Shown here: positions 1 through 64,000 of the stretch, piece after piece
Numbering within the stretch: the first letter of the stretch is position 1
How the letters are laid out: every line of letters begins with the position of its first letter
Assembly: GCA_964016885.1 (NCBI GenBank)
Contig: OZ024741.1
Location: 212,474,001 to 212,538,000, forward strand
Direction of reading: 5' to 3'
Origin: Eledone cirrhosa
Lineage: Eukaryota
Length of the DNA stretch: 64,000 bases
Notes under the pieces: model-generated
What the model was told of the DNA's origin: nothing
Seen by the model: only the letters and a program-made list of their open reading frames with translations
The model's database searches: none
Made by a program: the position numbers and the translations under genes

Positions 1-89
1 ATTCGTTTGTAAACAAACTGAACAGCCTGAATTTATGCCATACGGTGTTAAGGCAACCACGTCACCTTTTTGTTCAACACTGACACAGG

Positions 90-134
90 AACGATATACT
101 AGTTTCAAGCTTGTTAGCTATCATCAGCACCGTT
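90..134 (-). ncRNA. Minimal type I hammerhead ribozyme, family A copy 1
   Basis: Minus strand AACGGTG-CTGATGA-T AGC TAACAA GCT T-GAAA-C TA G-TA-TATCGTT: stem I (two G-U pairs), CUGAUGA/GAAA core, palindromic stem III, GUA cleavage triplet. Confidence 0.8.
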
Positions 135-560
135 TACCCATCTGCCAGATAGTTGAACGTTCGAAAGTATATACTTTCCTTATGAAAATTAACGGCTGAG
201 CAGCCTAATTTGCATATTGAGTGAGTTAAATCGGTCAGGCATACCGAAAACGATAAATTGAACAAAATGAAAACGAAATTTCATTTCTCACTCTTAGTAT
301 GGCACTTACTTAAATGTAAGTATGCATGTATACGTACATACATATATGTATACAGACGTACAGTAGCATGCACATATATATATATATATACATATATATA
401 TACATATGCATACAGGTACACATACATATATGCACGTATCAGTTTAGCGGCGCTTATTATAACGTCGCTTTGTTCGTTTGTAAACAAACTGAACAGCCTG
501 AATTTATGCCATACGGTGTTAAGGCAACCACGTCACCTTTTTGTTCAACACTGACACAGG

Positions 561-605
561 AACGATGTACTAGTTTCAAGCTTGTTAGCTATCATCAGCA
601 CCGTT
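561..605 (-). ncRNA. Minimal type I hammerhead ribozyme, family A copy 2
   Basis: Minus strand AACGGTG CTGATGA TAGCTAACAAGCTT GAAA CTAG TA CATCGTT; 7-bp stem I, intact core, GUA site. Confidence 0.85.
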
Positions 606-1032
606 TACCCATCTGCCAGATAGTTGAACGTTCGAAAGTATATACTTTCCTTATGAAAATTAACGGCTGAGCAGCCTAATTTGCATATTGAGTGAGTTAA
701 ATCGGTCAGGCATACCGAAAACGATAAATTGAAACAAAATGAAAACGAAATTTCATTTCTCACTCTTAGTATGGCACTTACTTAAATGTAAGTATGCATG
801 TATACGTACATACATATATGTATACAGACGTACAGTAGCATGCACATATATATATATATATACATATATATATACATATGCATACAGGTACACATACATA
901 TATGCACGTATCAGTTTAGCGGCGCTTATTATAACGTCGCTTTGTTCGTTTGTAAACAAACTGAACAGCCTGAATTTATGCCATACGGTGTTAAGGCAAC
1001 CACGTCACCTTTTTGTTCAACACTGACACAGG

Positions 1033-1077
1033 AACGATGTACTAGTTTCAAGCTTGTTAGCTATCATCAGCACCGTT
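1033..1077 (-). ncRNA. Minimal type I hammerhead ribozyme, family A copy 3
   Basis: Same sequence as copy 2. Confidence 0.85.
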
Positions 1078-1139
1078 TACCCATCTGCCAGATAGTTGAA
1101 CGTTCGAAAGTATATACTTTCCATATGAAAATTAACGGC

Positions 1140-1462
1140 TGAAACTAGTACATCGTTCCTGTGTCAGTGTTGAACAAAAAGGTGACGTGGTTGCCTTAAC
1201 ACCGTATGGCATAAATTCAGGCTGTTCAGTTTGTTTACAAACGAACAAAGCGACGTTATAATAAGCGCCGCTAAACTGATACGTGCATATATGTATGTGT
1301 ACCTGTATGCATATGTATATATATATGTATATATATATATATATATGTGCATGCTACTGTACGTCTGTATACATATATGTATGTACGTATACATGCATAC
1401 TTACATTTAAGTAAGTGCCATACTAAGAGTGAGAAATGAAATTTCGTTTTCATTTTGTTTCA
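1140..1462 (+). repeat. Inverted partial copy of the family A monomer (fold-back)
   Basis: Reverse complement of ~730-1050; begins TGAAACTAGTACATCGTT (3' half of the ribozyme) and ends in a (TA/CA)n microsatellite. Confidence 0.93.
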
Positions 1463-1603
1463 TATATATACATATACAAATATATATATATATATACATA
1501 TGTATATATATATATATATACATACATATATATACATATATATATATACATATATATATGTATATACATATATATATATGTATATACAGATATATGTATA
1601 TAC

Positions 1604-1852: not shown

Positions 1853-1944
1853 CATAAATATATATATATACATACATACATATATATATATATAGAATTA
1901 GGAAACGCGAAGTAGTTTCAGATGTTCAAGTCCTTTAATAATAA

Positions 1945-2133
1945 TTTGTTTCTACATTTGGCACAAGGCCAGCAAATACCCAGTACATTACTGGTACTTT
2001 ATTTTATCGACCCCGTAAGGATGAAAGGCAAAGTTAACCTCGGCGGGATTTGAACTCAGAATGGCAAATGCCGTAACTCTATGCGTCAAAGCATGGCGTC
2101 CGACCTTCTACCGATACTGCCAATTCACCGCCC
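1945..2133 (-). mobile_element. tRNA-derived SINE (dominant family, SINE-A)
   Basis: A-box-like TGGCAGTATCGG, B box GAGTTCAAATCC, central GCCTTTCATCCTTACGGGGTCGATAAA (Meta-domain-like, from memory), AGAAACAA-ATT tail, TSD CCTTTAATAATAAT. Confidence 0.85.
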
Positions 2134-2145
2134 TTTAATAATAAT

Positions 2146-2219
2146 GCTGTGATATATATTTCAATGACGACACTGGCCACACTCTTCTGTGTGCGAGTGT
2201 CGTGCCATCATCAGACAGC
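2146..2219 (-). ncRNA. Type I hammerhead ribozyme with extended stem II
   Basis: Minus strand GCTGT-CTGATGA-TGGC ACGACACT CG CACAC AGAAGA GTGTG GCC AGTGTCGT CATT-GAAA-TATATA-TC-ACAGC; perfect 5-bp stem I, AUC site. Confidence 0.72.
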
Positions 2220-2245: not shown

Positions 2246-2451
2246 GAGGCAATCCAAATTGAATCGACATGGGAACGGATGAAGTTCGTGCTTTTGGGTT
2301 TTTCATCCGTTCCCTTGTGAGTACCAATTCACCCCCACCGGTCTGCGCTTGCGCAGGGGTCCTATTCGTTCCTATTCCCCACTCTACTACCCTAAGTACT
2401 GAGTACTTTGGTGCGTTATGGTCCATCTGGTTCCTTACCACATTTCCTTCG

Positions 2452-2455
<4 letters not shown>
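2246..2455 (+). mobile_element. Short (TA)n-terminated repeat, probable Penelope-like 3' tail; other copies at 3462-3651 and 51597-51731
   Basis: Shared ~85 bp CCCACTCTACTACC..TGAGTACTTTGGTGCGTTATGGTCCA..CCTTACCACATTTCCTTCGTT immediately followed by (TA)n in all three copies. Confidence 0.7.
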
Positions 2456-3442: not shown

Positions 3443-3649
3443 ATATATATATATATATAGGACAATGTATGACCCCGACGGCAAAGCTCAAGCCGTTTCC
3501 ACGGCTATTTCTGAGTCCAGAAATAGCCCTAAAACTTCTTGAGCTCTGCCGACTGGGTCATACATATTCCTCTTACCCACTCTACTACCCTAAGTATTGA
3601 GTACTCTGGTGCGTTATGGTCCATCTGGTTCCTTACCACAACTCTTTCG

Positions 3650-3709
<60 letters not shown>

Positions 3710-5084: not shown

Positions 5085-5664
5085 ATTATCTTATTGATAG
5101 GTTCGCGGTTTTCATTTTCTTACGCTTTCTATCCAAGGCCTCTCAACCCTCTCCAACACCTTTCAAATTTTAGTGTTCCGATAGTGTTAGGACAATTGGT
5201 AGCAGTTTCAAACTTTTCTACTGCTCTAGATTCCCCGTTGGTGGCTTCCACATCTATGCGAACTTCAACAAACGACCGTGCAAGTTTGCAAGTTTCGGGG
5301 AGCTAGCAATCTGTAAATCACTATGCTTTTACATATGCTGCGTTAGCTTGACATATGGCCCCATTTATTTATAACCAGAATATATCATAAAAAGGTTAGG
5401 GCTATTAAAGCACGAGTTCTTAAAAACTGATATAGAAATATTTGGCGTAGCTTCACCTCCATGTTAGTTTAGCCGTAAAAAAGAAAAAAGACCAGCTAGA
5501 AATATTGTACGACGATACCCTAAAATATTGTAATAGTCATCTGAATACGTGAAACGAAAGCTAAAATGGTTTCTGTGAACAGTGCAAGATAAGAATTCTC
5601 TTTGAGAGAGACTACCTAGTTTGAAATTATAGATGAGCTTTGGATGGATATGTATATATATATA

Positions 5665-6450
5665 TTTCAGGCATGACTGGCCGTCGTCAGGACGGCCCCT
5701 CCCACCGCTTGCTACTGCTGGACTTGAGAACAGCCGAGAACATAGTTTTCTCGTCGTGCAAATTAGGTGATTAATCGCATTTGCATATGAAGCTGCATAA
5801 GTTGGCTCAACTTATTATAGAAAAGAAATAAGATTTCGCTTCAAGCATAGCTTTATACAATATGTATAGACATTTTGTATTTCCAAAGAAATACGGTTTT
5901 AGGAAGCCGTAGCTATGCAAACACCGGGGTGCTAACGCTCTCTGGTGATGTCGTGCAGATTAATGTCATTTGCATTTGAAGCTGCTTCTGCTCGACACCA
6001 CCACAGGGCGTTAGCCCCCCCCCCCCCCGTGTTTGCACAGCTCCGGCTTGCTAAATCGTATTTCTTTAGAAATACGAAATTTCTATACATATTGTATAAA
6101 GCTATGCTTGAAGGGAAATCTTATTTCTTTTCTATTATAAGTTGAGCCAACTTATGCAGCTTCATATGCAAATGAGATTAATCACCTTATTTACACAGAC
6201 GAGAAAACTATATATTCTCGACTGTTTTCAAGTCAGCAGTCACAAGCGGTTGGAGGGATCGTCCTGACGAAGGCCAGTGAAGCCTGAAATGCATAGATGG
6301 TTGTACCCCTTTCTTCTGCTGGACATCACCAGAGGGCGTAACCCCCCCCCCCGTGTTTGCATAGCTACGGCTTCCTAAAACTGTATTTCTTTAGGAATAC
6401 GAAATGTCTATACATATTGTATAAAGCTATGCTTGAAGCAAAATCTTATT

Positions 6451-6454
<4 letters not shown>
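5665..6454. repeat. Family B hammerhead monomer (~328 bp): one inverted copy (5665-5953, -) and ~1.4 tandem copies (5985-6454, +)
   Basis: 5665-5953 is the reverse complement of ~5993-6290; CTTCTGCT(C/G)GACA recurs at 5985 and 6313; flanked by (TA)n and (CT)n(TA)n. Confidence 0.9.
6253..6310 (+). ncRNA. Minimal type I hammerhead ribozyme, family B
   Basis: ATCGTC-CTGACGA-AGGC CAGTGAA GCCT-GAAA-TGCA-TA-GATGGT; 6-bp stem I (plus distal AGGG/CCCT), 4-bp stem II, palindromic ATGCAT stem III, AUA site. Confidence 0.85.
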
Positions 6455-6535
<81 letters not shown>

Positions 6536-6539
6536 TTTT

Positions 6540-6578
<39 letters not shown>

Positions 6579-7916
6579 TTTTACACACACACATATATAT
6601 ATATATTTGAAGAGGTCACTTGTAGAACTTAAGCGAATAATGATAATAACAAATAATATAATTTTTAGTCATAAGAATACAGAATATATAAGAAGATTAA
6701 TATAAAGATACGAGTAAAGCAATAATAATAATAGTAATAATAATGATAATAATATATTGGTAATAGTAATACTATATGAATTCAATATATATTGCAGTAA
6801 GAATATGACATCAACAATCCCACCAATAATAATAATAAAAGTAATAATATCAACAACAACAACTGTTGCGTAGAATTGAGGAAACAGCTAGAACTAAACA
6901 TGGTAGATATTGTAGAATCGTCTTTGGATCGCATAAAACAGTTCTTTAAACAGCAGGATGTCAAGTTCCAGACCAAAATGTCACAGTCCACTACAGCCAA
7001 TTCTTATGAATATATTGTGAAATGTCAAAGATCTTTTCGTTAAAATATCACAATGAAGAATTCCAATATTTTTTTTCTTTTCAGGAAAAGAAACTATATG
7101 AGAATTCTTTATCTGATTTGAGAAATATAAAGAATACGAAAACAACCACAAAAACAACAACGACAACGACAGTTACAATAGAGCAAATAGAAAAATAAAA
7201 ACCCACTACCACTACCTCCATCACAACAATAACAACAACAACAACGGCAAATTAACAACGACAAGAATAACAGCAGCAGCAGCAAATAAGCAGCAAAAAA
7301 ACAACATCAGCAACAAGAACAAGAACAAGAACAACAGCAGCAAATAGGAAAATTCAACAACAGCAACGAAAATATGAAAAAAAAAATACAATTTATCTTG
7401 AGACAGACAAAAGAAGATCTTTGAAAATTACAACACGATTTTTGTTTTGTAAAAAAATATATTAAAACCGATTTACAAAAAGAAAGAAAGAAATAGACTT
7501 TCGAAATATTACAATTTTGTTTATTCCTAATAACCCTGTGAAATATTATGAAGAATCTATAAAAATAATAATAAAACAATTGTAATATATATGTGTGTGT
7601 CTTCCTTTTGTTTACAGCTTGAATTCTCATAAAGAAGCTGATATTTTTTAAGCAAATAAAATATAATATGTTTTATTTCAAATATGATAATGATGAAAGG
7701 AAAAGAATTGAAGGAGGAGGGGGGATTGGCAAACTTCACTCTTGATTGGTCTTCATATCCCAGGCGTACTGTGCTGACAAGATGGCGAAGGCATTGTTGC
7801 GGAGAACAATCAGCGATACCTACTACATGGTTGTATTTGATAGACGGTTTCACAGATGTTTTAATGATAGGGGCCCCAATCTTATCAAGTTAATACCGTT
7901 GCAGCTAATACCTATA

Positions 7917-51546: not shown

Positions 51547-51600
<54 letters not shown>

Positions 51601-51729
51601 ATTAGCCGTCGAAACGGCTTGAGCTCAGCTGTCGGGGTCTTACTGGTTCCTATTACCCACTCTACTACCTCAAGTATTGAGTACTTTGGTGCGTTATGGT
51701 CCACCTGGTTCCTTACCACATTTCCTTCG

Positions 51730-51780
<51 letters not shown>

Positions 51781-53610: not shown

Positions 53611-55450
53611 GGGAGGTGGATTTGCAGTATCGGTAGAGGGTCAGACACCATGCTTTGAAACATAGAGTTATGGTCCTTTATGATCTGAATTGAGGTTAAC
53701 TTTGCCTTTCATCCTTACGGATGAAATAAAGTATCAGTCACGCACTGAAGTCAATTTAATCGACTTTCCTCTCCCCCGAAATTGCTGGCCTTGTGCCTAT
53801 ATAAGAAACCATTATTATTACGGCCCTTTATGGTCTGAGTTCAAATCCCGCCACGGTTAACTTTGCCTTTCATCCTTACGGGGTCGATAAAATAAAGTAC
53901 CAGTAATACACTGAGATAATTGCTGGCCTTGTGCCAAATGTAGAAACAATTATTATTGAGGGCGATGGATTGGCAGTATTGGTAGAACGCCAGACACTAT
54001 GGTTCGCGGAATAAAAATATGACCATTTAAGTTCTGAGTTCAAATCCCGCCGAAGTTACCTCCACCTTTAATCTGTCGATAAAATAAAGTAGCAGAAATC
54101 CCTGGCTTGGCAATGCAGCCTGTTCGAGACAAACATCGCAGGCATGGAAGTAATGTCAGATAGACCTGTCCGAGATCGCGGACCGATTTAATCAACTTCC
54201 TAATAATTTGTATTTGAAGGGTAGTGACCCTTCAAATTCAAATTATTATGATTTTTAATTCATCCTTACGGGGTCGATAAAATAAAGTACCAGTAATGCA
54301 CTAAGGTAATTGCTGGCCTTGTGCCTAAAGTAGAAACAATTATTATGATTTTTAAGCGTTTTACGTCCGAAGTCAACTTTAATAGGTATCCGTCTATTTG
54401 AAGTAAAATAAAGTGACAATGTCGCACTGGGGTTTATGTAATCCGCTGTCCACAAATTACTGGCCTTGTTCGTGAATTAGATATTATTATTATTATGCCT
54501 GTTTTTAACATTATTATAAATATTATTATAAATAAGGGCGCTTGATTGTTAGTATGGGTAGAGCGTCGGACAACCTTCTTTTAGACGTACATTTACGTCA
54601 CTTTACGTTCTGAATTCAAATCCTATCGTGGTTAGCCTTGCCATTCATCCTTACAGGGTTAATAAACCATAGCACCAGAAAGATACTGGGGTCTATGTGT
54701 GCGCATTTACATTCTGAGTTCAAATCCCACTGAGGTTAGCTTTGCCTTACATTCTTACGGGGTCGATAAAATAAAGCACCAGTAACACACTGGGGTCTAT
54801 TTATGCGCCTTTACAATCTGAGTTCAAATCCCACCAAAGTTCGCTTTCTATTCCTTACTTACGGGGTGGATAAAATAAAGCACCAGTAAGACACTTGGGC
54901 CGATTTACGTCCCTTTACAATCCGTGTTCAAATGCCGCCGAGGTTATCTTTGCCTTTCATCTTTACAGGGGTCAATGAAATCAAATCCAGTAATGCACTG
55001 GGGTCGATTTAATCGACTCTCCCATAACCCTCCCCCAAATGTCGGCCTTGTTCCTAACTGAGAAACGCTTTGGATTAACAGTATTGGTAGAGAGTCGGAC
55101 GCCATGCTGTGCATCATAGAGTTACGGCCCTTTATGATCTGAGTTCAAATCCCGCCGAGGTTAACTTTGCCTTTCATCCTTACGGGATCGATAAAATAAA
55201 GTACCAGTAATCTACTGAATAATTGCTGTCCTTGTGCCAAAAGTAGAAACAATTATTATAAGGTGGATTGACAGTATTGATAGAAGGTCGGACACAATGC
55301 TCTGACGCATAGAGCTACGGCCCTTGCCATTCTGAAGACAAATCATGCCGAGGTTAACCTAGACTTTCATTCTTACGGGGTCGATAAAATAAAGTACCAG
55401 TAATACACTGAGATAATTGCTGTCCTTTTGCCAAAAGTATAAACAATTAT
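53611..55450 (+). mobile_element. Cluster of ~8-10 head-to-tail SINE-A copies and fragments
   Basis: Repeated B box, central domain and AGAAACAATTATT tails, all on the + strand. Confidence 0.85.
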
Positions 55451-55564
55451 TATATAAATAATATACGTAAATAAAAGAAATCCTGGTAGGCTCTAGTCAA
55501 CGAAATGATAATGGCTGTAGTGTGGTATGGTAAAATATTGTTAGATTACTATAGATATCTCTCT

Positions 55565-55576
55565 CTAAATATGGCG

Positions 55577-55609
<33 letters not shown>

Positions 55610-56077
55610 GGCTACTGAAGTTGGCGCTGCAGTTGTTGTCGTTGTTGTTGTTGTGGCTGAGGCTGCTTCTGAAGTTGGTGCTGGTTTTGTTGTTGCTGTT
55701 GTTGTTGTTGTGGCTACTGTTGCTTCTGAAGTTGGTGCTGGTGTTGTTGTTGTTGCTGTGGCTACTGCTGCTTCTGAAGTTGGTGCTGGTGTTGTTGTTG
55801 CTGTTGTTGTTGTTGTGGCTACTGCTGCTTCTGAAGTTGGTGCTGGTGTTGTTGTTGCTGTTGTTGTTGTTGTGACTACTGCTGCTTCTGAAGTTGGTGC
55901 TGGTGTTGTTGTTGTTGTTGTTGTTGTTGTTGTGGCTACTGCTGCTTCTGAAGTTGGTGCTGCAGTTGTTGTCGTTCTCGCTGTTTCTGTTGCTGCAGTT
56001 GTTGTTGTTGTTGTTGCTGTAGTTGCAGTTGGTGTTGTTGTTGTGCCGGCTACTGGTGCTTCTGAAGTTGGTGCTGG

Positions 56078-56110
<33 letters not shown>

Positions 56111-57911
56111 GCCGGCTACTGATGCTTCTGAAGTTGCTGATGGTGCTATTGTGGTTCGTGTTGTTGTTACTGAAGTTGTTGTTGTAGTTACTGGAGCCTC
56201 TGAGGTTGGTGCTGCAGTTGTTGTGGCTACTGCTGCTTCTGAAGTTGTTGCTGTTGTTGTTGTTGTTGTGGCTACTGCTGCTTCTGAAGTTATTGCTGTT
56301 GTTGTTGTTGTTGTGGCTACTGCTGCTTCTGAAGTTATTGCTGTTGTTGTTGTTGTTGTTATTGTGGCTACTGCTGCTTTTGAAGTTATTGCTGTTGTTG
56401 TTGTTCTTGTTGTGGCTACTGCTGTTTCTGAAGTTGGTGCTGATATTGATGTGGTTCTTGTTGTTGTGGCTACTGTTGCTTTTGAAGTTGGTGCTGCAGT
56501 TGTTCTTATTGTTGTTGTGGCTACTGCTGCTTTTGAAGTTGGTGCTGGTGTTGCTGTTGTTGTTGTTGTTGTTGGGGTGGTGCTGCAGCTGCTGGTGTTG
56601 CTGGTGTTGCTGGTGTTGCTGGTGCTGGCTGTTGCGATTCTTGTTGCTGCTGTTGTTGTTGTTGTTGTTACTGCTGCTTCTGAAGTTGATGTTGATGTGT
56701 TTGCTATTATAATTGTTGTTGCTGTTGTTGCTGCTGTTGTTGCTACTGTTGCTGTTGTAGTTGCTGTTGGTATTGCTGTTGCTGTTGTTGCTGCTGATGT
56801 TACTGCTGGAGTTGTTGCTGGTGTTACTGTTGTTGTTGGCGGTGGTGTTACTGCTGTTGTTGGTGTTACTGCTGTTGTTGTTGTTGGTGTTACTGCTGGT
56901 GTTGTTGGTGATGTCACTGCTGTTGTTGTTGGTGGTATTACTGCTGTTGTTGTTGGTGGTGTTACTGCTGTTGTTGTTGTTGGTGTTACTGCTGTTGTTG
57001 TTGTTGGTGTTACTGCTGCTGTTGTTGGTGGTATTACTGCTGCTGTTGTTGGTAGTGTTACTGCTGTTGTTGTTGTTGGTGTTACTGCTGTTGTTGTTGT
57101 TGGTGTTACTGCTGCTGTTGTTGGTGGTGTTACTGCTGTTGTTGTTGTTGTTGTTGGTGTTACTGCTGTTGTTGCTGTCTGTGTTACTGCTGTTGTTGTT
57201 GTTGTTGGTGTTACTGCTGTTGTTGTTGTTGGTGTTACTGCTGTTGTTGTTGTTGGTGTTACTGCTGCTGTTGTTGGTGGTGTTACTGCTGTTGTTGTTG
57301 TTGTTGGTGTTACTGCTGTTGTTGCTGTCGGTGTTACTGCTGTTGTTGTTGTTGGTGTTACTGCTGTTGTTGTTGTTGGTGTTACTGCTGTTGTTGTTGG
57401 TGGTGTTACTGCTGTTGTTGTTGGTGGTGTTACTGCTGTTGTTGTTGTTGGTGTTACTGCTGTTGTTGTTCTTGGTGTTACTGCTGTTGTTGCTGTTGCT
57501 GTTACTGTTGTTGTTGTTGTTGTTGGTGTCACTGCTGTTGTTGTTGTTGGTGTTACTGCTGTTGTTGTTGGTGGTGTTACTGCTGTTGTTGTTGTTGGTG
57601 TTACTGCTGTTGTTGTTGTTGGTGTTACTGCTGTTGTTGTTGTTGGTGTTACTGCTGTTGTTGTTGTTGCTGTTACTGTTGTTGTTGTTGTTGGTGTTAC
57701 TGCAATTGTTGTTGGTGGTGTTACTGCTGTTGTTGTTGTTGGTGTTACTGCTGTTGTTGTTGGTGGTGTTACTGCTGTTGTTGTTGTTGGTGTTACTGCT
57801 GTTGTTGTTGTTGGTGTTACTGCTGCTGTTGTTGGTGGTGTTACTGCTGTTGTTGTTGTTGGTGTTACTGCTGTTGTTGCTGTCGGTGTTACTGTTGTTG
57901 TTGTTGCTAGT
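55565..57911 (-). CDS. Mucin-like Thr/Pro/Ala/Val/Ser repeat reading frame (TAVTPTTT, then PAPTSEAAVATTT units)
   Basis: About 780 stop-free codons ending at TAG 55565, with PTS-like composition. No signal peptide, globular domain or splice acceptor is visible, so it could be non-coding satellite. Confidence 0.4.
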
Positions 57912-60900
57912 GTTACTGCTGTGTTGTTGTTGCTGTTACTGTTGTTGTTGTTGTTGGTGTTACTGCTGTTGTTGTTGTTGGTGTTACTGCTGTTGTTGTT
58001 GGTGGTGTTACTGCTGTTGTTGTTGGTGGTGTTACTGCTGTTGTTGTTGTTGGTGTTACTGCTGTTGTTGCTGTTGCTGTTACTGCTGTTGTTTCTGTTG
58101 CTGTTACTGTTGTTGTTGTTGTTGTTGGTGTCACTGCTGTTGTTGTTGTTGTTGGTGTTACTGCTGTTGTTGTTGGTGGTGTTACTGCTGTTGTTGTTGT
58201 TGGTGTTACTGCTGTTGTTGTTGCTGTTACTGTTGTTGTTGTTGTTGTTGGTGTCACTGCTGTTGTTGTTGTTGTTGGTGTTACTGCTGTTGTTGTTGGT
58301 GGTGTTACTGCTGTTGTTGTTGTTGGTGTTACTGCTGTTGTTGTTGTTGCTGTTACTGTTGTTGTTGTTGTTGGTGTTACTGCAATTGTTGTTGTTGGTG
58401 TTACTGCTGTTGTTGTTGTTGCTGTTACTGTTGTTGTTGTTGTTGGCATTACTGCTGTTGTTGTTGGTGGTGTTACTGCTGTTGTTGTTGTTGGTGTTAC
58501 TGCTGTTGTTGTTGTTGGTGTTACTGCTGTTGTTGTTGTTGCTGTTACTGTTGTTGTTGTTGTTGTTGGTGGTGTTACTGCTGATGTTGTTGGTGGTGTT
58601 ACTACTGTTGTTGTTGGTGGTGTTACTGCTGATGTTGTTGGTGGTGTTACTGCTGTTGTTGTTGTTGGAGTTACTACTGTTGTTGTTGTTGGTGTTACTG
58701 CTGTTGTTGTTGGTGGTGTTACTGATGTTGTTGTTGCTGCTGGTGTTACTGCTGTTGTAGTTGTTGGTGTTACTGTTGCTGTTTTTGTTGGTGTTACTGC
58801 TGTTGTTGTTGTTGGTGTTACTGCTGTTGTTGTTGTTGGTGTTACTGCTGTTGTTGTTGTTGGTGTTACTGCTGCTGTTGTTGTTGGTGTTACTGCTGCT
58901 GTTGTTGTTGGTGTTACTGCTGTTGTTGTTGTTGGTGTCACTGCTGTTGTTGTTGTTGGTGTTACTATTGTTGTTGTTGTTGTTACTGCTGGTGCGGTTG
59001 TCGTTGGTGGTGTTACTGCTGTTGTTGTTGGTGGTGTTACTACTGTTGTTGTTGTTGGTGTTACTGTTGTTGTTGTTGTTGTTACTGCTGTTGTTGTTGG
59101 TGTTACTGCTGTTGATGTTGTTGGTGCTACTGCTGTTGTTGTTGGTGTTACTGCTATTGTTGTTGTTGGTGTTACTGCTGCTGTTGTTGTTGGTGTTACT
59201 GCTGCTGTTGTTGTTGGTGTTACTGCTGTTGTTGTTGGTGGTGTTACTGCTGTTGTTGTTGTTGGTGTTACTACTGTTGTTGTTGGTGTTATTGCTGCTG
59301 ACATTGTTGGTGGTTTTACTGCTGCTGTTGTTGTTGGTGTTACTGCTGTTGTTGTTGTTGGTGTTACTACTGCTGTTGTTGTTGGTGTTACTGTGTTGTG
59401 GTTGTTGCTGTTACTGCTGTTGGTGGTGGTGGTGTTACTGCTGTTGTTGTTGTTGGTGTTACTGCTGTTGTTGTTGGTGGTTTTACTGCTGCTTTTGAAG
59501 TTGGTGCTGGTGTTGTTGTCGTTGCTGTTGTTGTGGCTGCTGCTGCTGCTGGTGTTGCTGGTGTTGCTGGTGTTGCTGGTGCTGCTGGTGTTGCTGGAGC
59601 TGGCTGTTGCGATTCTTGTTGCTGCTGCTGTTGTTGTTATTACTGCTGGTTCTGAAGTTGGTGTTGATGTGTTTGCTATTATAATTGTTGTTGCTGTGTT
59701 CTGCTGTTGTTGCTAATGTTGTGGTTGTTGTTGCTGCTGCTTCTGCAGTTGTTGCTAGTGCTATTGCTATTGTAATTGTTGCTGTTATTGTTGTAGTTGC
59801 TCTTATTGCTGCTGTTGGGCTTTTTGTTGCTTCTGCGGATTCTGCAGTTGCTGCTGCTGCTATTGGAACTGTTTTTGCTGCCGTTATGTGCTTATTGCTG
59901 CTACTACTGTTGTTGTAGTTGATGATGATTATTTTCTGCTGTTTCTGTTGTTGCTGTAGTAGTTGTACTACTGTTGTTGGTCCTACAGCTGTTGCTATTG
60001 CTGCTGACGCTGCAGTTGCTTCTTCTGCTACTAATATTGTTGTTGCTGCTGCAGCAGTTGTCATGAAGTTGTTGTTGCGTTCGTTACTTATGTTGCTGTT
60101 GTAGTTGCTGTTGCTGTTGTTGCTGCTGGTGTTACTGCTGTTGTTGCTGTTGTTGTTACTACTGTTGTTGTTGGTGGCTTTACTGCTGTTGTTGTTGTTG
60201 GTGTTACTGCTGTTGTTGTTGGTGGTGTTACTGCTGTTGTTGTTGTTGTTGTTGGTGTTACTGCTGTTGTTGCTGTCGGTGTTACTGCTGTTGTTGTTGG
60301 TGGTGTTACTACTGTTGTTGTTGTTGGTGTTACTGCTGTTGTTGTTGGTGGTGTTACTGCTGTTGTTGTTGGTGTTACTGCTGTTGTTGCTGTCGGTGTT
60401 ACTGCTGTTGTTGTAGGTGGTGTTACTGCTGTTGTTGTTGTTGTTGGTGTTACTGCTGTTATTTTTGTTGTTGGTGTTACTGCTGTTGTTGTTGGTGGTG
60501 TTACTGCTGTTGTTGTTGTTGTTGGTGTTACTGCTGTTGTTGCTGTCGGTGTTACTGCTGTTGTTGTTGGTGGTGTTACTACTGTTGTTGTTGTTGGTGT
60601 TACTGCTGTTGTTGTTGTTGTAACTGCTGGTATGGTGTTGGTGTTACTACTGTTGTTGTTGTTGGTGGTGTTACTGCTGCGGTTGTTGTTGGTGTTACTG
60701 CTGTTGTTGTTGGTGGTGTTACTGCTGTTGTTGTTGTTGGTGTTACTGTTGTTGTTGTTGGTGGTGTTACTGCTGTTGTTGTTGTTGGTGTTACTGTTGT
60801 TGTTGTTGGTGGTGTTACTGCTGTTGTTGTTGTTGTTGGTGTTACTGCTGTTGTTGCTGTCGGTGTTACTGCTGTTGTTGTTGGTGGTGTTACTACTGTT

Positions 60901-61852
60901 GTTGCTGTTGGTGTTACTGCTGTTGTTGTTGTTGTTGTAACTGCTGGTATTGTTGTTGGTGTTACTACTGTTGTTGTTGTTGGTGGTGTTACTGCTGCGG
61001 TTGTTGTTGGTGTTACTGCTGTTGTTGTTGGTGGTGTTACTGCTGTTGTTGTTGTTGGTGTTACTGTTGTTGTTGTTGGTGGTGTTACTGGTGTTTTTGT
61101 TGGTGGTTTTACTGCTGTTGTTGTTGGTGGTTTTACTGCTGCTTTTGAAGTTGGTGCTGGTGTTGTTGTCGTTGTTCTTGTTGTGGCTGCTGCTGCTGCT
61201 GCTGCTGGTGTTGCTGGTGTTGCTGGTGTTGCTGGTGCTGCTGGTGTTGCTGGAGCTGGCTGTTGCGATTCTTGTTGCTGCTGCTATTGTTGTTGTTGTT
61301 ACTGCTGCTTCTGAAGTTGCTGTTGATGTGTTTGCTTTTATAATTGTTGTTGCTGTTGTTCTGCTGTTGTTGCTACTTTTGTGGTTGTTGTTGTTGTTGC
61401 TGCTATTCTGCAGTTGTTGCTAGTGCTATTGCTATTGTAATTGTTGCTGTCATTGTTGTAGTTGCTCTTATTGCTGCTGTTGGGATTTTTGTTGCTACTG
61501 CGGATTCTGCAGTTGCTGCTGCTGCTATTGGAATTGTTTTTGCTGCTGTTATGTGCTTATTGCTGCTACTACTGTTGTTGTAGTTGATGATGATTACTTG
61601 CTGCTGTTTCTGTTGTTGCTGTAGTAGTTGTACTACTGTTGTTGGTCCTACAGCTGTTGCTATTGCTGCTGACGCTGCAGTTGCTTCTTCTCCTACTAAT
61701 ATTGTTGTTGCTGCTGCAGCAGTTGTCATGAAGTTGTTGTTGCGTTAGTTACTTACGTTGCTGTTGTAGTTGCTGTTGCTATTGTTGCTGTTGGTGTTAC
61801 TGCTGGTGTTGTTGGTGGTGTAAACTGCTGTTGTTGTTGATGGTGGTGTTAC

Positions 61853-61883
<31 letters not shown>

Positions 61884-64000
61884 ACTGCTGTTGTTATTGG
61901 TGGTGTTACTGCTGTTGTTGTTGTTGGTGTTACTGCTGTTGTTGTTGTTGGTGTTACTGCTGATGCTGCTGTCGTTGTTGGTGTCACTGCTGTGATGTTG
62001 CTGCTGGTGTTACTGCTGCTGTTGTTGTTGGTGTTACTGCTGTGTTGTTGGTGGTGGTGTTACTGCTGCTGTTGTTGTTGGTGTTACTGCTGTGTTGTTG
62101 GTGGTGGTGTTACTGCTGCTGTTGTTGGTGGTGTTACTGCTGTTGTTGTTGGTGTTACTGCTGCTGTTGTTGTTGGTGTCACTGCTGTGATGTTGCTGCT
62201 GGTGTTACTGCTGCTGTTGTTGTTGGTGTTACTGCTGTGTTGTTGGTGGTGGTGTTACTGCTGCTGTTGTTGGTGGTGTTACTGCTGTTGTTGTTGGTGT
62301 TACTGCTGTTGTTGCTGTTGAGGTTACATCTGTTGTTGTTGTTGGTGTTACTATTGTTGTTGTTGTTGGTGGTGTTACTGTTGTTGTTGTTGTTGTTACT
62401 GCTGTTGTGGTTGGTGGTGTTACTGTTGTTGTTGTTGTTGGTGTTACTGCTGTTGTTGTTGTTGGTGTTACTACTGTTGTTGTTGTTGGTGTCACTGCTG
62501 TTGTTGTTGTTGTTGTTACTGCTGGGGCTGTTATCGTTGGTGGTGTTACTGCTGCTGCTGTAGTTGGTGATACTGCTGTTGTTGTTGTTGGTGTTACTGC
62601 TGGTGCTGTTGTCGTTGGTGGTGTCACTGCTATTGTTGTTGCTGCTGGTGTTACTGCTGGTGTAGTTGTTGGTGTTACTGTTGCTGTTGTTGTTGGTGTT
62701 ACTGCTGTTGTTGTTGTTGGTGTTACTGCTGTTGTTGTTGTTGGTGTTACTGCTGTTGTTGTTGTTGGTGTTACTGCTGTTGTTGTTGTTGGTGTTACTG
62801 CTGTTGTTGTTGTTGGTGTTACTGCTGTTGTTGTTGTTGGTGTTACTGCTGTTGTTGTTGTTGGTGTTACTGCTGCTGTTGTTGTTGGTGTTACTGCTGC
62901 TGTTGTTGGTGTTACTGCTGTTGTTGGTGGTGTTACTGCTGGTGTAGTTGTTGGTGTTACTGTTGCTGTTGTTGTTGGTGTTACTGCTGTTGTTGTTGTT
63001 GGTGTTACTGCTGTTGTTGTTGTTGGTGTTACTGCTGTTGTTGTTGTTGGTGTTACTGCTGCTGTTGTTGTTGGTGTTACTGCTGCTGCTGTTGTTGTTG
63101 CTGTTAGTGTTGTTGTTGTTGTTGTTGGTGTCACTGCTGTCGTTGTTCTTGTTGGTGTTACTGCTGCTGTTGTTGTTGGTGTTACTGCTGCTGCTGTTGT
63201 TGTTGCTGTTACTGTTGTTGTTGTTGTTGTTGGTGGTGTTACTACTGTTGTTGTTGGTGGTGTTACTGCTGTTGTTGTTGGTGGTGTCACTGGTATTGTT
63301 GTTGTTGTTGGTGTTACTACTGTTGTTGTTGGTGGTGTCACTGCTGTTGTTGTTGTTGTTGGTGTTACTGTTGTTGTTGTTGTTGGTGTTACTACTGTTG
63401 TTGTTATTGGTGTCACTGCTGTTGATGTTGTTGTTGGTGTTACTGCTGTTGTTGTTGGTGGTGTTACTGCTGTTGTTGTTGGTGTTACAGCTGTTGTTGT
63501 TGTTGGTGTTACTGCTGTTATTTTTGTTGTTGGTGTTACTGCTGTTGTTGTTGTTGTTGTTGTTGTTGTAACTGCTGCTCTTGTTGATGGTGTTACTACT
63601 GTTGTGTTGTTGGTGTTACTGCTGTTGCTATTGCTGCTGACGCTGCAGTTGCTTCTTCTCCTACTAATATTGTTGTTGCTGCTGCAGCAGTTGTCATGAA
63701 GTTGTTGTTGCGTTAGTTAATTACGTTGCTGTTGTTGTTGCTGTTGCTGTTGTTGCTGCTGGTGTTACTGCTGGTGTTGTTGGTGGTGTCACTGCTGTTG
63801 TTGTTGATGGTGGTGTTACCGTTGTTGTTGTTGTTGTTGTTACTGCTGTTGTTGTTGGTGGTGTTACTGCTGTTGTTGTTGCTGCTGGTGTTACTGCTGT
63901 TGTAGTTGTTAGTGTTACTGTTGCTGTTGTTGTTGGTGTTACTGCTGCTGTTGTTGTTGGTGTTACTGCTGGCGTTGTTGGTGGTGTTACAGTTGTTGTT
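55577..64000. repeat. Trinucleotide-based minisatellite (GGTGTTACTGCTGTTGTTGTT..) with 1.7-2.0 kb higher-order blocks; runs off window end
   Basis: 18-30 bp units; unique marker GTCATGAAGTTGTTGTTGCGTT at 60060, 61725 and 63693. Confidence 0.92.

What the first reader, a model, noticed from the sequence alone, without database searches (positions are those of the whole stretch)
5665..6454. Second hammerhead monomer family (~328 nt) in inverted-plus-tandem arrangement
Seen: a near-canonical type I hammerhead at 6258-6301 inside a monomer that repeats with period 328 (5985 to 6313), plus an inverted copy with its own core at 5665-5697; no ORF. Known: this size matches metazoan non-LTR retrozymes, and greater-than-unit-length permuted inserts are expected from reverse transcription of circular RNA. 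Inferred: an independent retrozyme family using the same integration mechanism as family A.
Basis: partly seen in the sequence, partly recalled or inferred. Interest (0 to 1): 0.78.

Follow-up and report, generated by a model that had tools for sequence, protein, structure and literature searches.

The report
Hammerhead mini-element riding Penelope transposons
This is one copy of a 325-base, protein-free repeat found over a thousand times in this animal genome; it carries a predicted self-cutting RNA motif, and its ends bear the marks of Penelope-type jumping genes, which likely copy it.

Summary
A type I hammerhead (core 6264-6295) sits in a ~325-nt non-coding monomer. The inverted arm holds only a broken half-ribozyme. 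The family has over 1,100 exact-motif hits, 64 two-ribozyme dimers, a ~10-unit array, and an older subfamily with five compensatory base-pair changes in the ribozyme.

Copies are not freely permuted. 5' ends are uniform, but 3' ends fall at two sites ~40 nt apart, mostly against (TA)n. Of 128 loci, 80 are head-to-head inversions, and 51 of 55 classifiable pairs use one site each. This is the Penelope-like element (PLE) 'tail' signature, also seen in family A and in an autonomous PLE of this genome. None of the 128 loci is joined to a PLE ORF.

Verdict: a new family of animal non-LTR retrozyme, likely a non-autonomous passenger of PLE enzymes. That link is already proposed in print. A circular template and self-cleavage are untested. 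The scan noted a similar arrangement in another genome, judged there a truncated PLE.

The parts
5648..5663 (.). (TA)n-rich left target remnant
   Evidence: sequence
5664..5959 (-). inverted arm, monomer positions +20 to +328 counted from the predicted cut site; outer end atypical (neither site A nor B)
5664..5699 (-). incomplete hammerhead half: core and stem II present, stem I 3' strand missing, first stem II pair mismatched
5958..5985 (-). 28-nt templated filler (monomer +193 to +220) joining the two arms with 2-3 nt overlaps
   Evidence: (D19)
5983..6454 (+). direct arm, ~1.45 monomers, 5' end at +16, 3' end at site B (+166)
6251..6308 (+). type I hammerhead ribozyme motif (CTGACGA 6264-6270; GAAA 6286-6289; predicted cut after 6295)
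6415..6454 (+). ~40-nt tail between family end site A (~6414) and end site B (~6454)
6454..6606 (.). (CT)n then (TA)n microsatellite, right target remnant

Best explanation
This is a copy of an ORF-less ~325-nt hammerhead repeat family (an animal non-LTR retrozyme) that is likely copied in trans by the reverse transcriptase and GIY-YIG endonuclease of a Penelope-like element. SHOWN: fixed 3' ends at two sites ~40 nt apart, scattered 5' ends, head-to-head inversions that pair one end of each kind, microsatellite flanks, read-through of the ribozyme site, and both arms from one template lineage. INFERRED: the PLE protein cuts both strands of a (TA)n tract. Each DNA end primes reverse transcription at an internal site of the RNA, one at site A (~+127) and the other at site B (~+168). 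The two cDNAs grow toward each other, stop at variable lengths and are joined by microhomology or a short templated patch. The template is multimer-equivalent RNA, either a ligated circle read round more than once or an uncleaved tandem transcript. The ribozyme is kept by selection in the source lineage, likely cutting tandem transcripts into monomers, probably as a dimer. This window copy has one complete ribozyme and is likely a dead end.
For: 3' ends: 112 of 140 arms at A or B (chi-square p=5e-56), 5' ends uniform (p=0.28), and 97 of those 112 followed by a microsatellite (83 loci). In 128 unique position-ordered loci: 80 head-to-head pairs, 0 tail-to-tail; A+B 51, A+A 1, B+B 3 (binomial p=1e-11); 25 pairs have at least one end at neither site. 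Family A shows two end sites (~+257, ~+316), with 4 of 5 inverted pairs one of each. An RT+GIY-YIG element in this genome (L159; family confirmed on L148) is head-to-head with ends near +121 and +165-175 from its own hammerhead. Literature: a 30-40-bp tail often at one end, inverted 5'-truncated copy and (TA)n bias (PMC8557442, passages); both strands cut and extended from two internal start sites that define the tail (PMC11167929, main text). Arms in one locus share subfamily alleles (0.88 inverted, 0.90 tandem, versus 0.37 between loci). 75 of 89 arms cross the cut site and 1 of 89 ends at it. Covariation: 5 stem pairs change on both sides between subfamilies, 93% of cells paired, against 32-51% for slid controls. 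No collinear PLE ORF at a 5' end in 128 loci.
Against: No autonomous partner sharing sequence with the monomer was found: 50 GIY-YIG loci and 19 further PLE loci gave no significant match, out of ~10,600 GIY-YIG candidates, so helper identity is open. Windows for sites A and B were drawn after seeing the data, and ends blur into (TA)n. 28 of 140 arms end elsewhere, as does this window's own left arm. Covariation is essentially one contrast between two subfamilies, and the number of pairs changed on both sides was matched by 55 of 500 shuffles. Rfam does not recognise the motif. Self-cleavage and transcription are not shown, and 8 of 9 predicted frog retrozyme dimers did not cleave in vitro (bioRxiv 10.64898/2026.07.22.740005). 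Gene conversion between arms could also raise within-locus allele sharing. An antisense self-priming model has been offered for head-to-head PLE inversions (PMC3846280, passages).
Confidence: 0.82

Rival explanations
1. Ordinary 5'-truncated ends (pseudo-LTRs) of an autonomous PLE; the tandem is the usual partial tandem and there is no independent small element.
For: All end features are PLE features. An earlier scan note reached this verdict for a similar arrangement in another genome. Only about 190 of several thousand loci were inspected.
Against: Long arms re-enter the preceding monomer through the same fixed sequence instead of an ORF: 44 of 89 arms extend past about -175 with no pile-up of ends there. 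There are 64 regular dimers and a ~10-unit array. An older subfamily, 62-78% alike, has the same monomer order. 0 of 128 loci are joined to an ORF.
Confidence: 0.08
2. One reading: a circular RNA reverse transcribed from arbitrary start points, giving freely permuted inserts.
For: Arms longer than a unit (38 of 140). The ends of the cut-to-cut monomer pair with each other: 24-25 of the first 28 nt pair with the last 75 in 6 of 6 monomers.
Against: Start points of reverse transcription (3' ends) are fixed at two sites. A circle may still be the template, but initiation is not arbitrary.
Confidence: 0.05
3. A DNA-level repeat (satellite or foldback-type element) spread by recombination or rolling-circle DNA copying, with a vestigial hammerhead.
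For: One long array whose units 3 and 8 share a deletion, suggesting block duplication. The ribozyme core outside the search motif is no better conserved among copies than the rest.
Against: Polarity (fixed 3', uniform 5'), dispersed copies, complementary A+B ends and compensatory stem changes fit RNA-templated insertion.
Confidence: 0.05

Closest known systems
Metazoan non-LTR retrozymes (Cervera and de la Pena 2020, PMC7229834; passages read)
   Same: Canonical type I hammerhead in a 150-450-bp ORF-less monomer, low GC (43-45%), dimers to multimers, strongly self-paired. Two length variants differing by ~20 nt are reported in coral and also seen here.
   Different: Circular RNA and cleavage were shown there and are untested here. 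Most copies here are sub-dimer and inverted. That paper names PLEs only as a strong candidate helper.
Retrozymes as non-autonomous PLE derivatives (bioRxiv 10.64898/2026.07.22.740005; introduction to discussion read)
   Same: Same conclusion on origin and mobilisation.
   Different: Their evidence is co-occurrence and pLTR homology in vertebrates. Here it is insertion-end anatomy, and no homologous pLTR was found.
Endonuclease-positive Penelope-like elements, e.g. Poseidon PAc, Neptune, rotifer Pen2a (PMC11167929, PMC8557442, PMC3846280, PMC4209133)
   Same: Hammerhead upstream of two 3' end sites, optional 30-40-nt tail, head-to-head inversion, 5' truncation, AT-rich or microsatellite targets, palindromic loop 3.
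   Different: No RT-GIY-YIG ORF; the tandem unit is a fixed ~325 nt.
Family A of this window (1-1467, period 472)
   Same: Type I hammerhead with palindromic loop 3, tandem plus head-to-head arms, two end sites, (TA)n targets.
   Different: No sequence match, tail ~58 nt, 17,027 exact 23-mer hits, more long tandems.

Membership tests
Metazoan non-LTR retrozyme | Canonical type I hammerhead in each unit | tested here: met
   Core, stems and palindromic loop 3; compensatory changes. Rfam gives no match.
Metazoan non-LTR retrozyme | 150-450-bp monomer in tandem, at least two ribozymes in some loci | tested here: met
   64 two-ribozyme dimers; ~10-unit array. The window copy itself has one.
Metazoan non-LTR retrozyme | No coding capacity, GC under 50% | tested here: met
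   Longest stop-free stretch 69 codons; GC 43-45%
Metazoan non-LTR retrozyme | Highly self-paired monomer | tested here: met
   Circular fold z -4.5 to -8.2 in 6 of 6 monomers; the opposite strand folds at least as well, so this does not show strand or circularity
Metazoan non-LTR retrozyme | No primer-binding site or polypurine tract | not tested
   No tRNA-complement search was run
Metazoan non-LTR retrozyme | Self-cleavage of the RNA | not testable with these tools
   Needs an in vitro assay
Metazoan non-LTR retrozyme | Abundant linear and circular monomer RNA in tissue | not testable with these tools
   Needs RNA data or northern blot
Metazoan non-LTR retrozyme | Long target-site duplications when present | tested here: inconclusive
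   3 of 128 loci versus 3 of 256 control pairings; two loci picked by eye show ~60 and ~38 nt repeats
Autonomous EN+ Penelope-like element | ORF with RT and GIY-YIG endonuclease | tested here: not met
   None in the element; 0 of 128 loci collinear with one
Autonomous EN+ Penelope-like element | Two 3' end sites defining a 30-40-nt tail, often at one end only | tested here: met
   112 of 140 arms; A+B in 51 of 55 classifiable pairs
Autonomous EN+ Penelope-like element | Head-to-head inverted and partial-tandem insertions, 5' truncation | tested here: met
   80 of 128 head-to-head, 0 tail-to-tail; 5' ends uniform
Autonomous EN+ Penelope-like element | AT-rich or microsatellite targets | tested here: met
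   97 of 112 A/B ends
Autonomous EN+ Penelope-like element | Sequence homology to the pLTR of a coding element | tested here: inconclusive
   None in 69 PLE loci examined, a small part of ~10,600 candidates

The most novel reading that the evidence does not exclude
A self-cleaved, ligated ~325-nt RNA circle is the template, and a dimeric Penelope-type enzyme primes both ends of one break on it at two fixed, mutually exclusive sites. The near-strict one-A-one-B rule in a retrozyme would then be a direct genomic record both of retrozyme mobilisation by PLEs and of how PLE head-to-head inversions arise, with a 325-nt RNA as a minimal substrate.
Probability: 0.4. Interest if true: 0.7.

Novelty: new member of a known kind. 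Interest (0 to 1): 0.45.

Why it matters
The family itself is one more animal retrozyme. Its value lies in the ends. Published support for PLE mobilisation of retrozymes rests on co-occurrence and pLTR homology, and how PLE inversions form is described as unresolved (PMC8557442). My searches (open-access library only, listings read) showed no paper reporting the PLE tail, or counted one-of-each end pairing, in a retrozyme family. A 325-nt RNA with mapped start sites is a compact substrate for testing both questions in the existing in vitro PLE assay.

Tried and rejected
Rfam: no hammerhead hit, only microsatellite-driven microRNA noise. Folding energy of the ribozyme alone: not beyond shuffles. 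RNA evidence: no RNA holder listed; three contig sets of unrecorded kind from one sample hold the family and say nothing on expression.

Cleaved linear monomer as template: rejected, as there is no pile-up of 5' ends at the cut site (1 of 89). Step in truncation rate after one turn, as a sign of a circle: inconclusive. The rate rises about threefold with the best break at 310 nt (AIC 2184.5), but a break fixed at 325 nt (2193.9) is no better than a smooth Weibull (2191.4). The long array as master copy: its units are 84-95% alike and carry a variant not common in the family, so not supported.

Search for the autonomous parent: a family accession recalled from memory was not in the library. GIY-YIG loci, a variant-hammerhead pattern (which found the older subfamily instead) and the PLE family next to L087 (different hammerhead, 0 of 19 other copies with the monomer) gave none. 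PLE fragments within 200 nt of an arm's 3' end in 3 of 128 loci come from more than one family and are taken as chance neighbours. Target-site duplications: not enriched. Selection on genomic copies: not shown, and core conservation is biased by my search motif. Supplements of the bioRxiv preprint were not seen and could list related families.

Full report
OBSERVATION. The + strand holds a complete type I hammerhead motif: proximal stem I of 7 pairs, CTGACGA at 6264-6270, 4-bp stem II with a 7-nt loop, GAAA, a one-pair stem III closed by the palindrome TGCA, and an AUA triplet with the cut predicted after 6295. It lies in an arm of about 1.45 monomers, 5983-6454, with period 324-328. An inverted arm at 5664-5959 faces it head to head, and a 28-nt templated piece of the monomer joins the two. 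Both outer ends abut microsatellites. The inverted arm stops inside stem III, lacks the 3' strand of stem I and has a mismatched first pair in stem II, so it is not a second ribozyme. There is no ORF. Against the motif: Rfam does not score it and it folds no better than shuffles when isolated.

FAMILY. The genome (3.0 Gb) gave 3,048 candidates for the monomer, and 1,139 and 1,338 exact hits for two motifs with reversed controls of 0. Sixty-four places hold two ribozyme motifs one unit apart; none of the 64 listed places adjoin, so long arrays are rare. One array of about ten units, 3.3 kb, ends at site A. A variant pattern uncovered an older subfamily, 62-78% alike to the main one, with the same monomer order and similar ends. 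In 42 aligned ribozymes (22 main, 20 older or intermediate), 93% of cells pair. Three stem II pairs and two stem I pairs change on both sides in 9-19 sequences each, and the covariation score is 0.347 against 0.04-0.17 for slid controls. This is in essence one subfamily contrast, and the count of doubly changed pairs is reached by 55 of 500 shuffles. It still indicates that the source lineage kept the fold while the sequence changed.

ENDS. I mapped arms onto a natural monomer, counting from the predicted cut. In 83 loci taken in order along contig C1, 112 of 140 arms end at +115-137 (A) or +157-178 (B), while 5' ends are uniform (p=0.28). Of the 112, 97 run into a microsatellite. In the enlarged set of 128 unique loci, 80 are head-to-head pairs, none tail-to-tail, and 48 are single arms. 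Of the 80 pairs, 51 are A+B, 1 A+A, 3 B+B and 25 have an end at neither site (p=1e-11 for 51 of 55). The A and B windows were set on the data, and (TA)n blurs exact ends. Many junctions between arms show overlaps of a few bases. Arms of one locus share subfamily alleles (0.88-0.90 against 0.37), so they come from one template lineage, although gene conversion could contribute. In 89 arms anchored downstream of the cut site, 75 cross it, 10 cross two, and 1 ends at it. The template is thus ligated or uncleaved, not a cut linear monomer.

COMPARISON INSIDE THE GENOME. Family A (window 1-1467, period 472; 17,027 exact hits) has no sequence match to this family. It has its own two end sites (~+257, ~+316), with one of each in 4 of 5 inverted pairs seen. 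A family of RT+GIY-YIG elements carries a different hammerhead in its 3' region and ends at about +121 or +165-177; its one inverted locus examined, L159, has one of each. That spacing is close to the +127 and +168 seen here. No examined PLE shares sequence with the monomer (50 loci, 19). Thirteen of 128 loci have PLE fragments in the fetched flank, and none is collinear at a 5' end.

MECHANISM. Inferred from the above and from the in vitro behaviour of the anole PLE, which cuts and extends both strands, starts at two internal sites that define the tail, and uses uncleaved RNA as its main substrate (PMC11167929, main text parts 1-2). A PLE protein supplied in trans opens a (TA)n tract. The two DNA ends prime cDNA at sites A and B. 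The cDNAs stop at variable lengths and are joined to each other, giving the head-to-head form, or one is joined to the far flank, giving a single arm. Arms longer than one unit need a circle or a tandem transcript. A circle is favoured, not shown, by the rarity of long arrays, by pairing that brings the two ends of a cut monomer together (6 of 6 monomers), and by circles demonstrated for comparable coral, mussel and axolotl elements (PMC7229834, passages). My test for a drop in elongation after one turn was inconclusive. I put the circle at about even odds. The short palindromic stem III suggests dimeric cleavage (PMC4209133, passages).

WHAT IS KNOWN. Tails at one end, inverted 5'-truncated copies and (TA)n bias are described for PLEs (PMC8557442; PMC3846280), as are opposite-strand hammerhead pairs 100-700 bp apart. 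PLEs were proposed as retrozyme helpers in 2020, and a 2026 preprint argues this from co-occurrence and pLTR homology. The element meets every sequence-level retrozyme feature that gave a clear test result. It fails membership of autonomous PLEs (no ORF) while working like one at the insertion step. An earlier scan note on another genome judged a similar arrangement a truncated PLE. That reading fits poorly here, because long arms re-enter the monomer rather than an ORF.

VERDICT. A real feature and a new member of a known kind. What is added is the end anatomy tying a retrozyme to PLE-type integration. Interest 0.45.

Noticed in passing
window 1-1467: Family A: 472-nt hammerhead monomer, tandem on the minus strand plus an inverted arm ending in (TA)n; 17,027 exact motif hits; two end sites about 58 nt apart with one-of-each pairing.
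   Followed up: partly
L195:7631-10000 and L196:1-935 (G000:C2:83,920,630-83,923,935): Array of about ten units ending at site A; units share a private stem I variant, and units 3 and 8 share a deletion (95% alike), suggesting a five-unit higher-order repeat.
   Followed up: partly
L265, L326-L354: Older subfamily with a longer monomer and compensatory ribozyme changes; a hairpin just before site A also appears to swap a pair (seen by eye, not counted).
   Followed up: partly
L144, L148, L149, L154, L157, L159: RT+GIY-YIG PLE family with its own hammerhead about 380-400 nt after the stop codon and two end sites; a candidate helper by geometry only.
   Followed up: partly
L145:3809-6622, L147:1775-5062: Long open PLE frames of 938 and 1,096 codons (stop to stop), so recently active PLE families exist in this genome.
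   Followed up: no
L087, L101, L104: PLE fragments of more than one family abut an arm's 3' end in the opposite orientation; chance or chimeric insertion.
   Followed up: partly
L015, L025: Long direct repeats (about 60 and 38 nt) flank the insert, possible long target-site duplications.
   Followed up: partly
window 1933-2146 and about 20 other places: A ~200-nt interspersed repeat at very high density in the window, with tandem forms at 54601-55460.
   Followed up: no
window 2356-2452, 3519-3650, 51598-51730: Another short repeat ending sharply in (TA)n, also found beside several family loci; possibly a further (TA)n-targeting element.
   Followed up: no
window 55577-64000: Over 8 kb of degenerate 3-nt/72-nt repeat with long open frames, possibly a low-complexity coding exon.
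   Followed up: no
L125, L150, L154, L160, L359, L364, L372: Further unrelated hammerhead-like motifs, suggesting many more such families in this genome.
   Followed up: no
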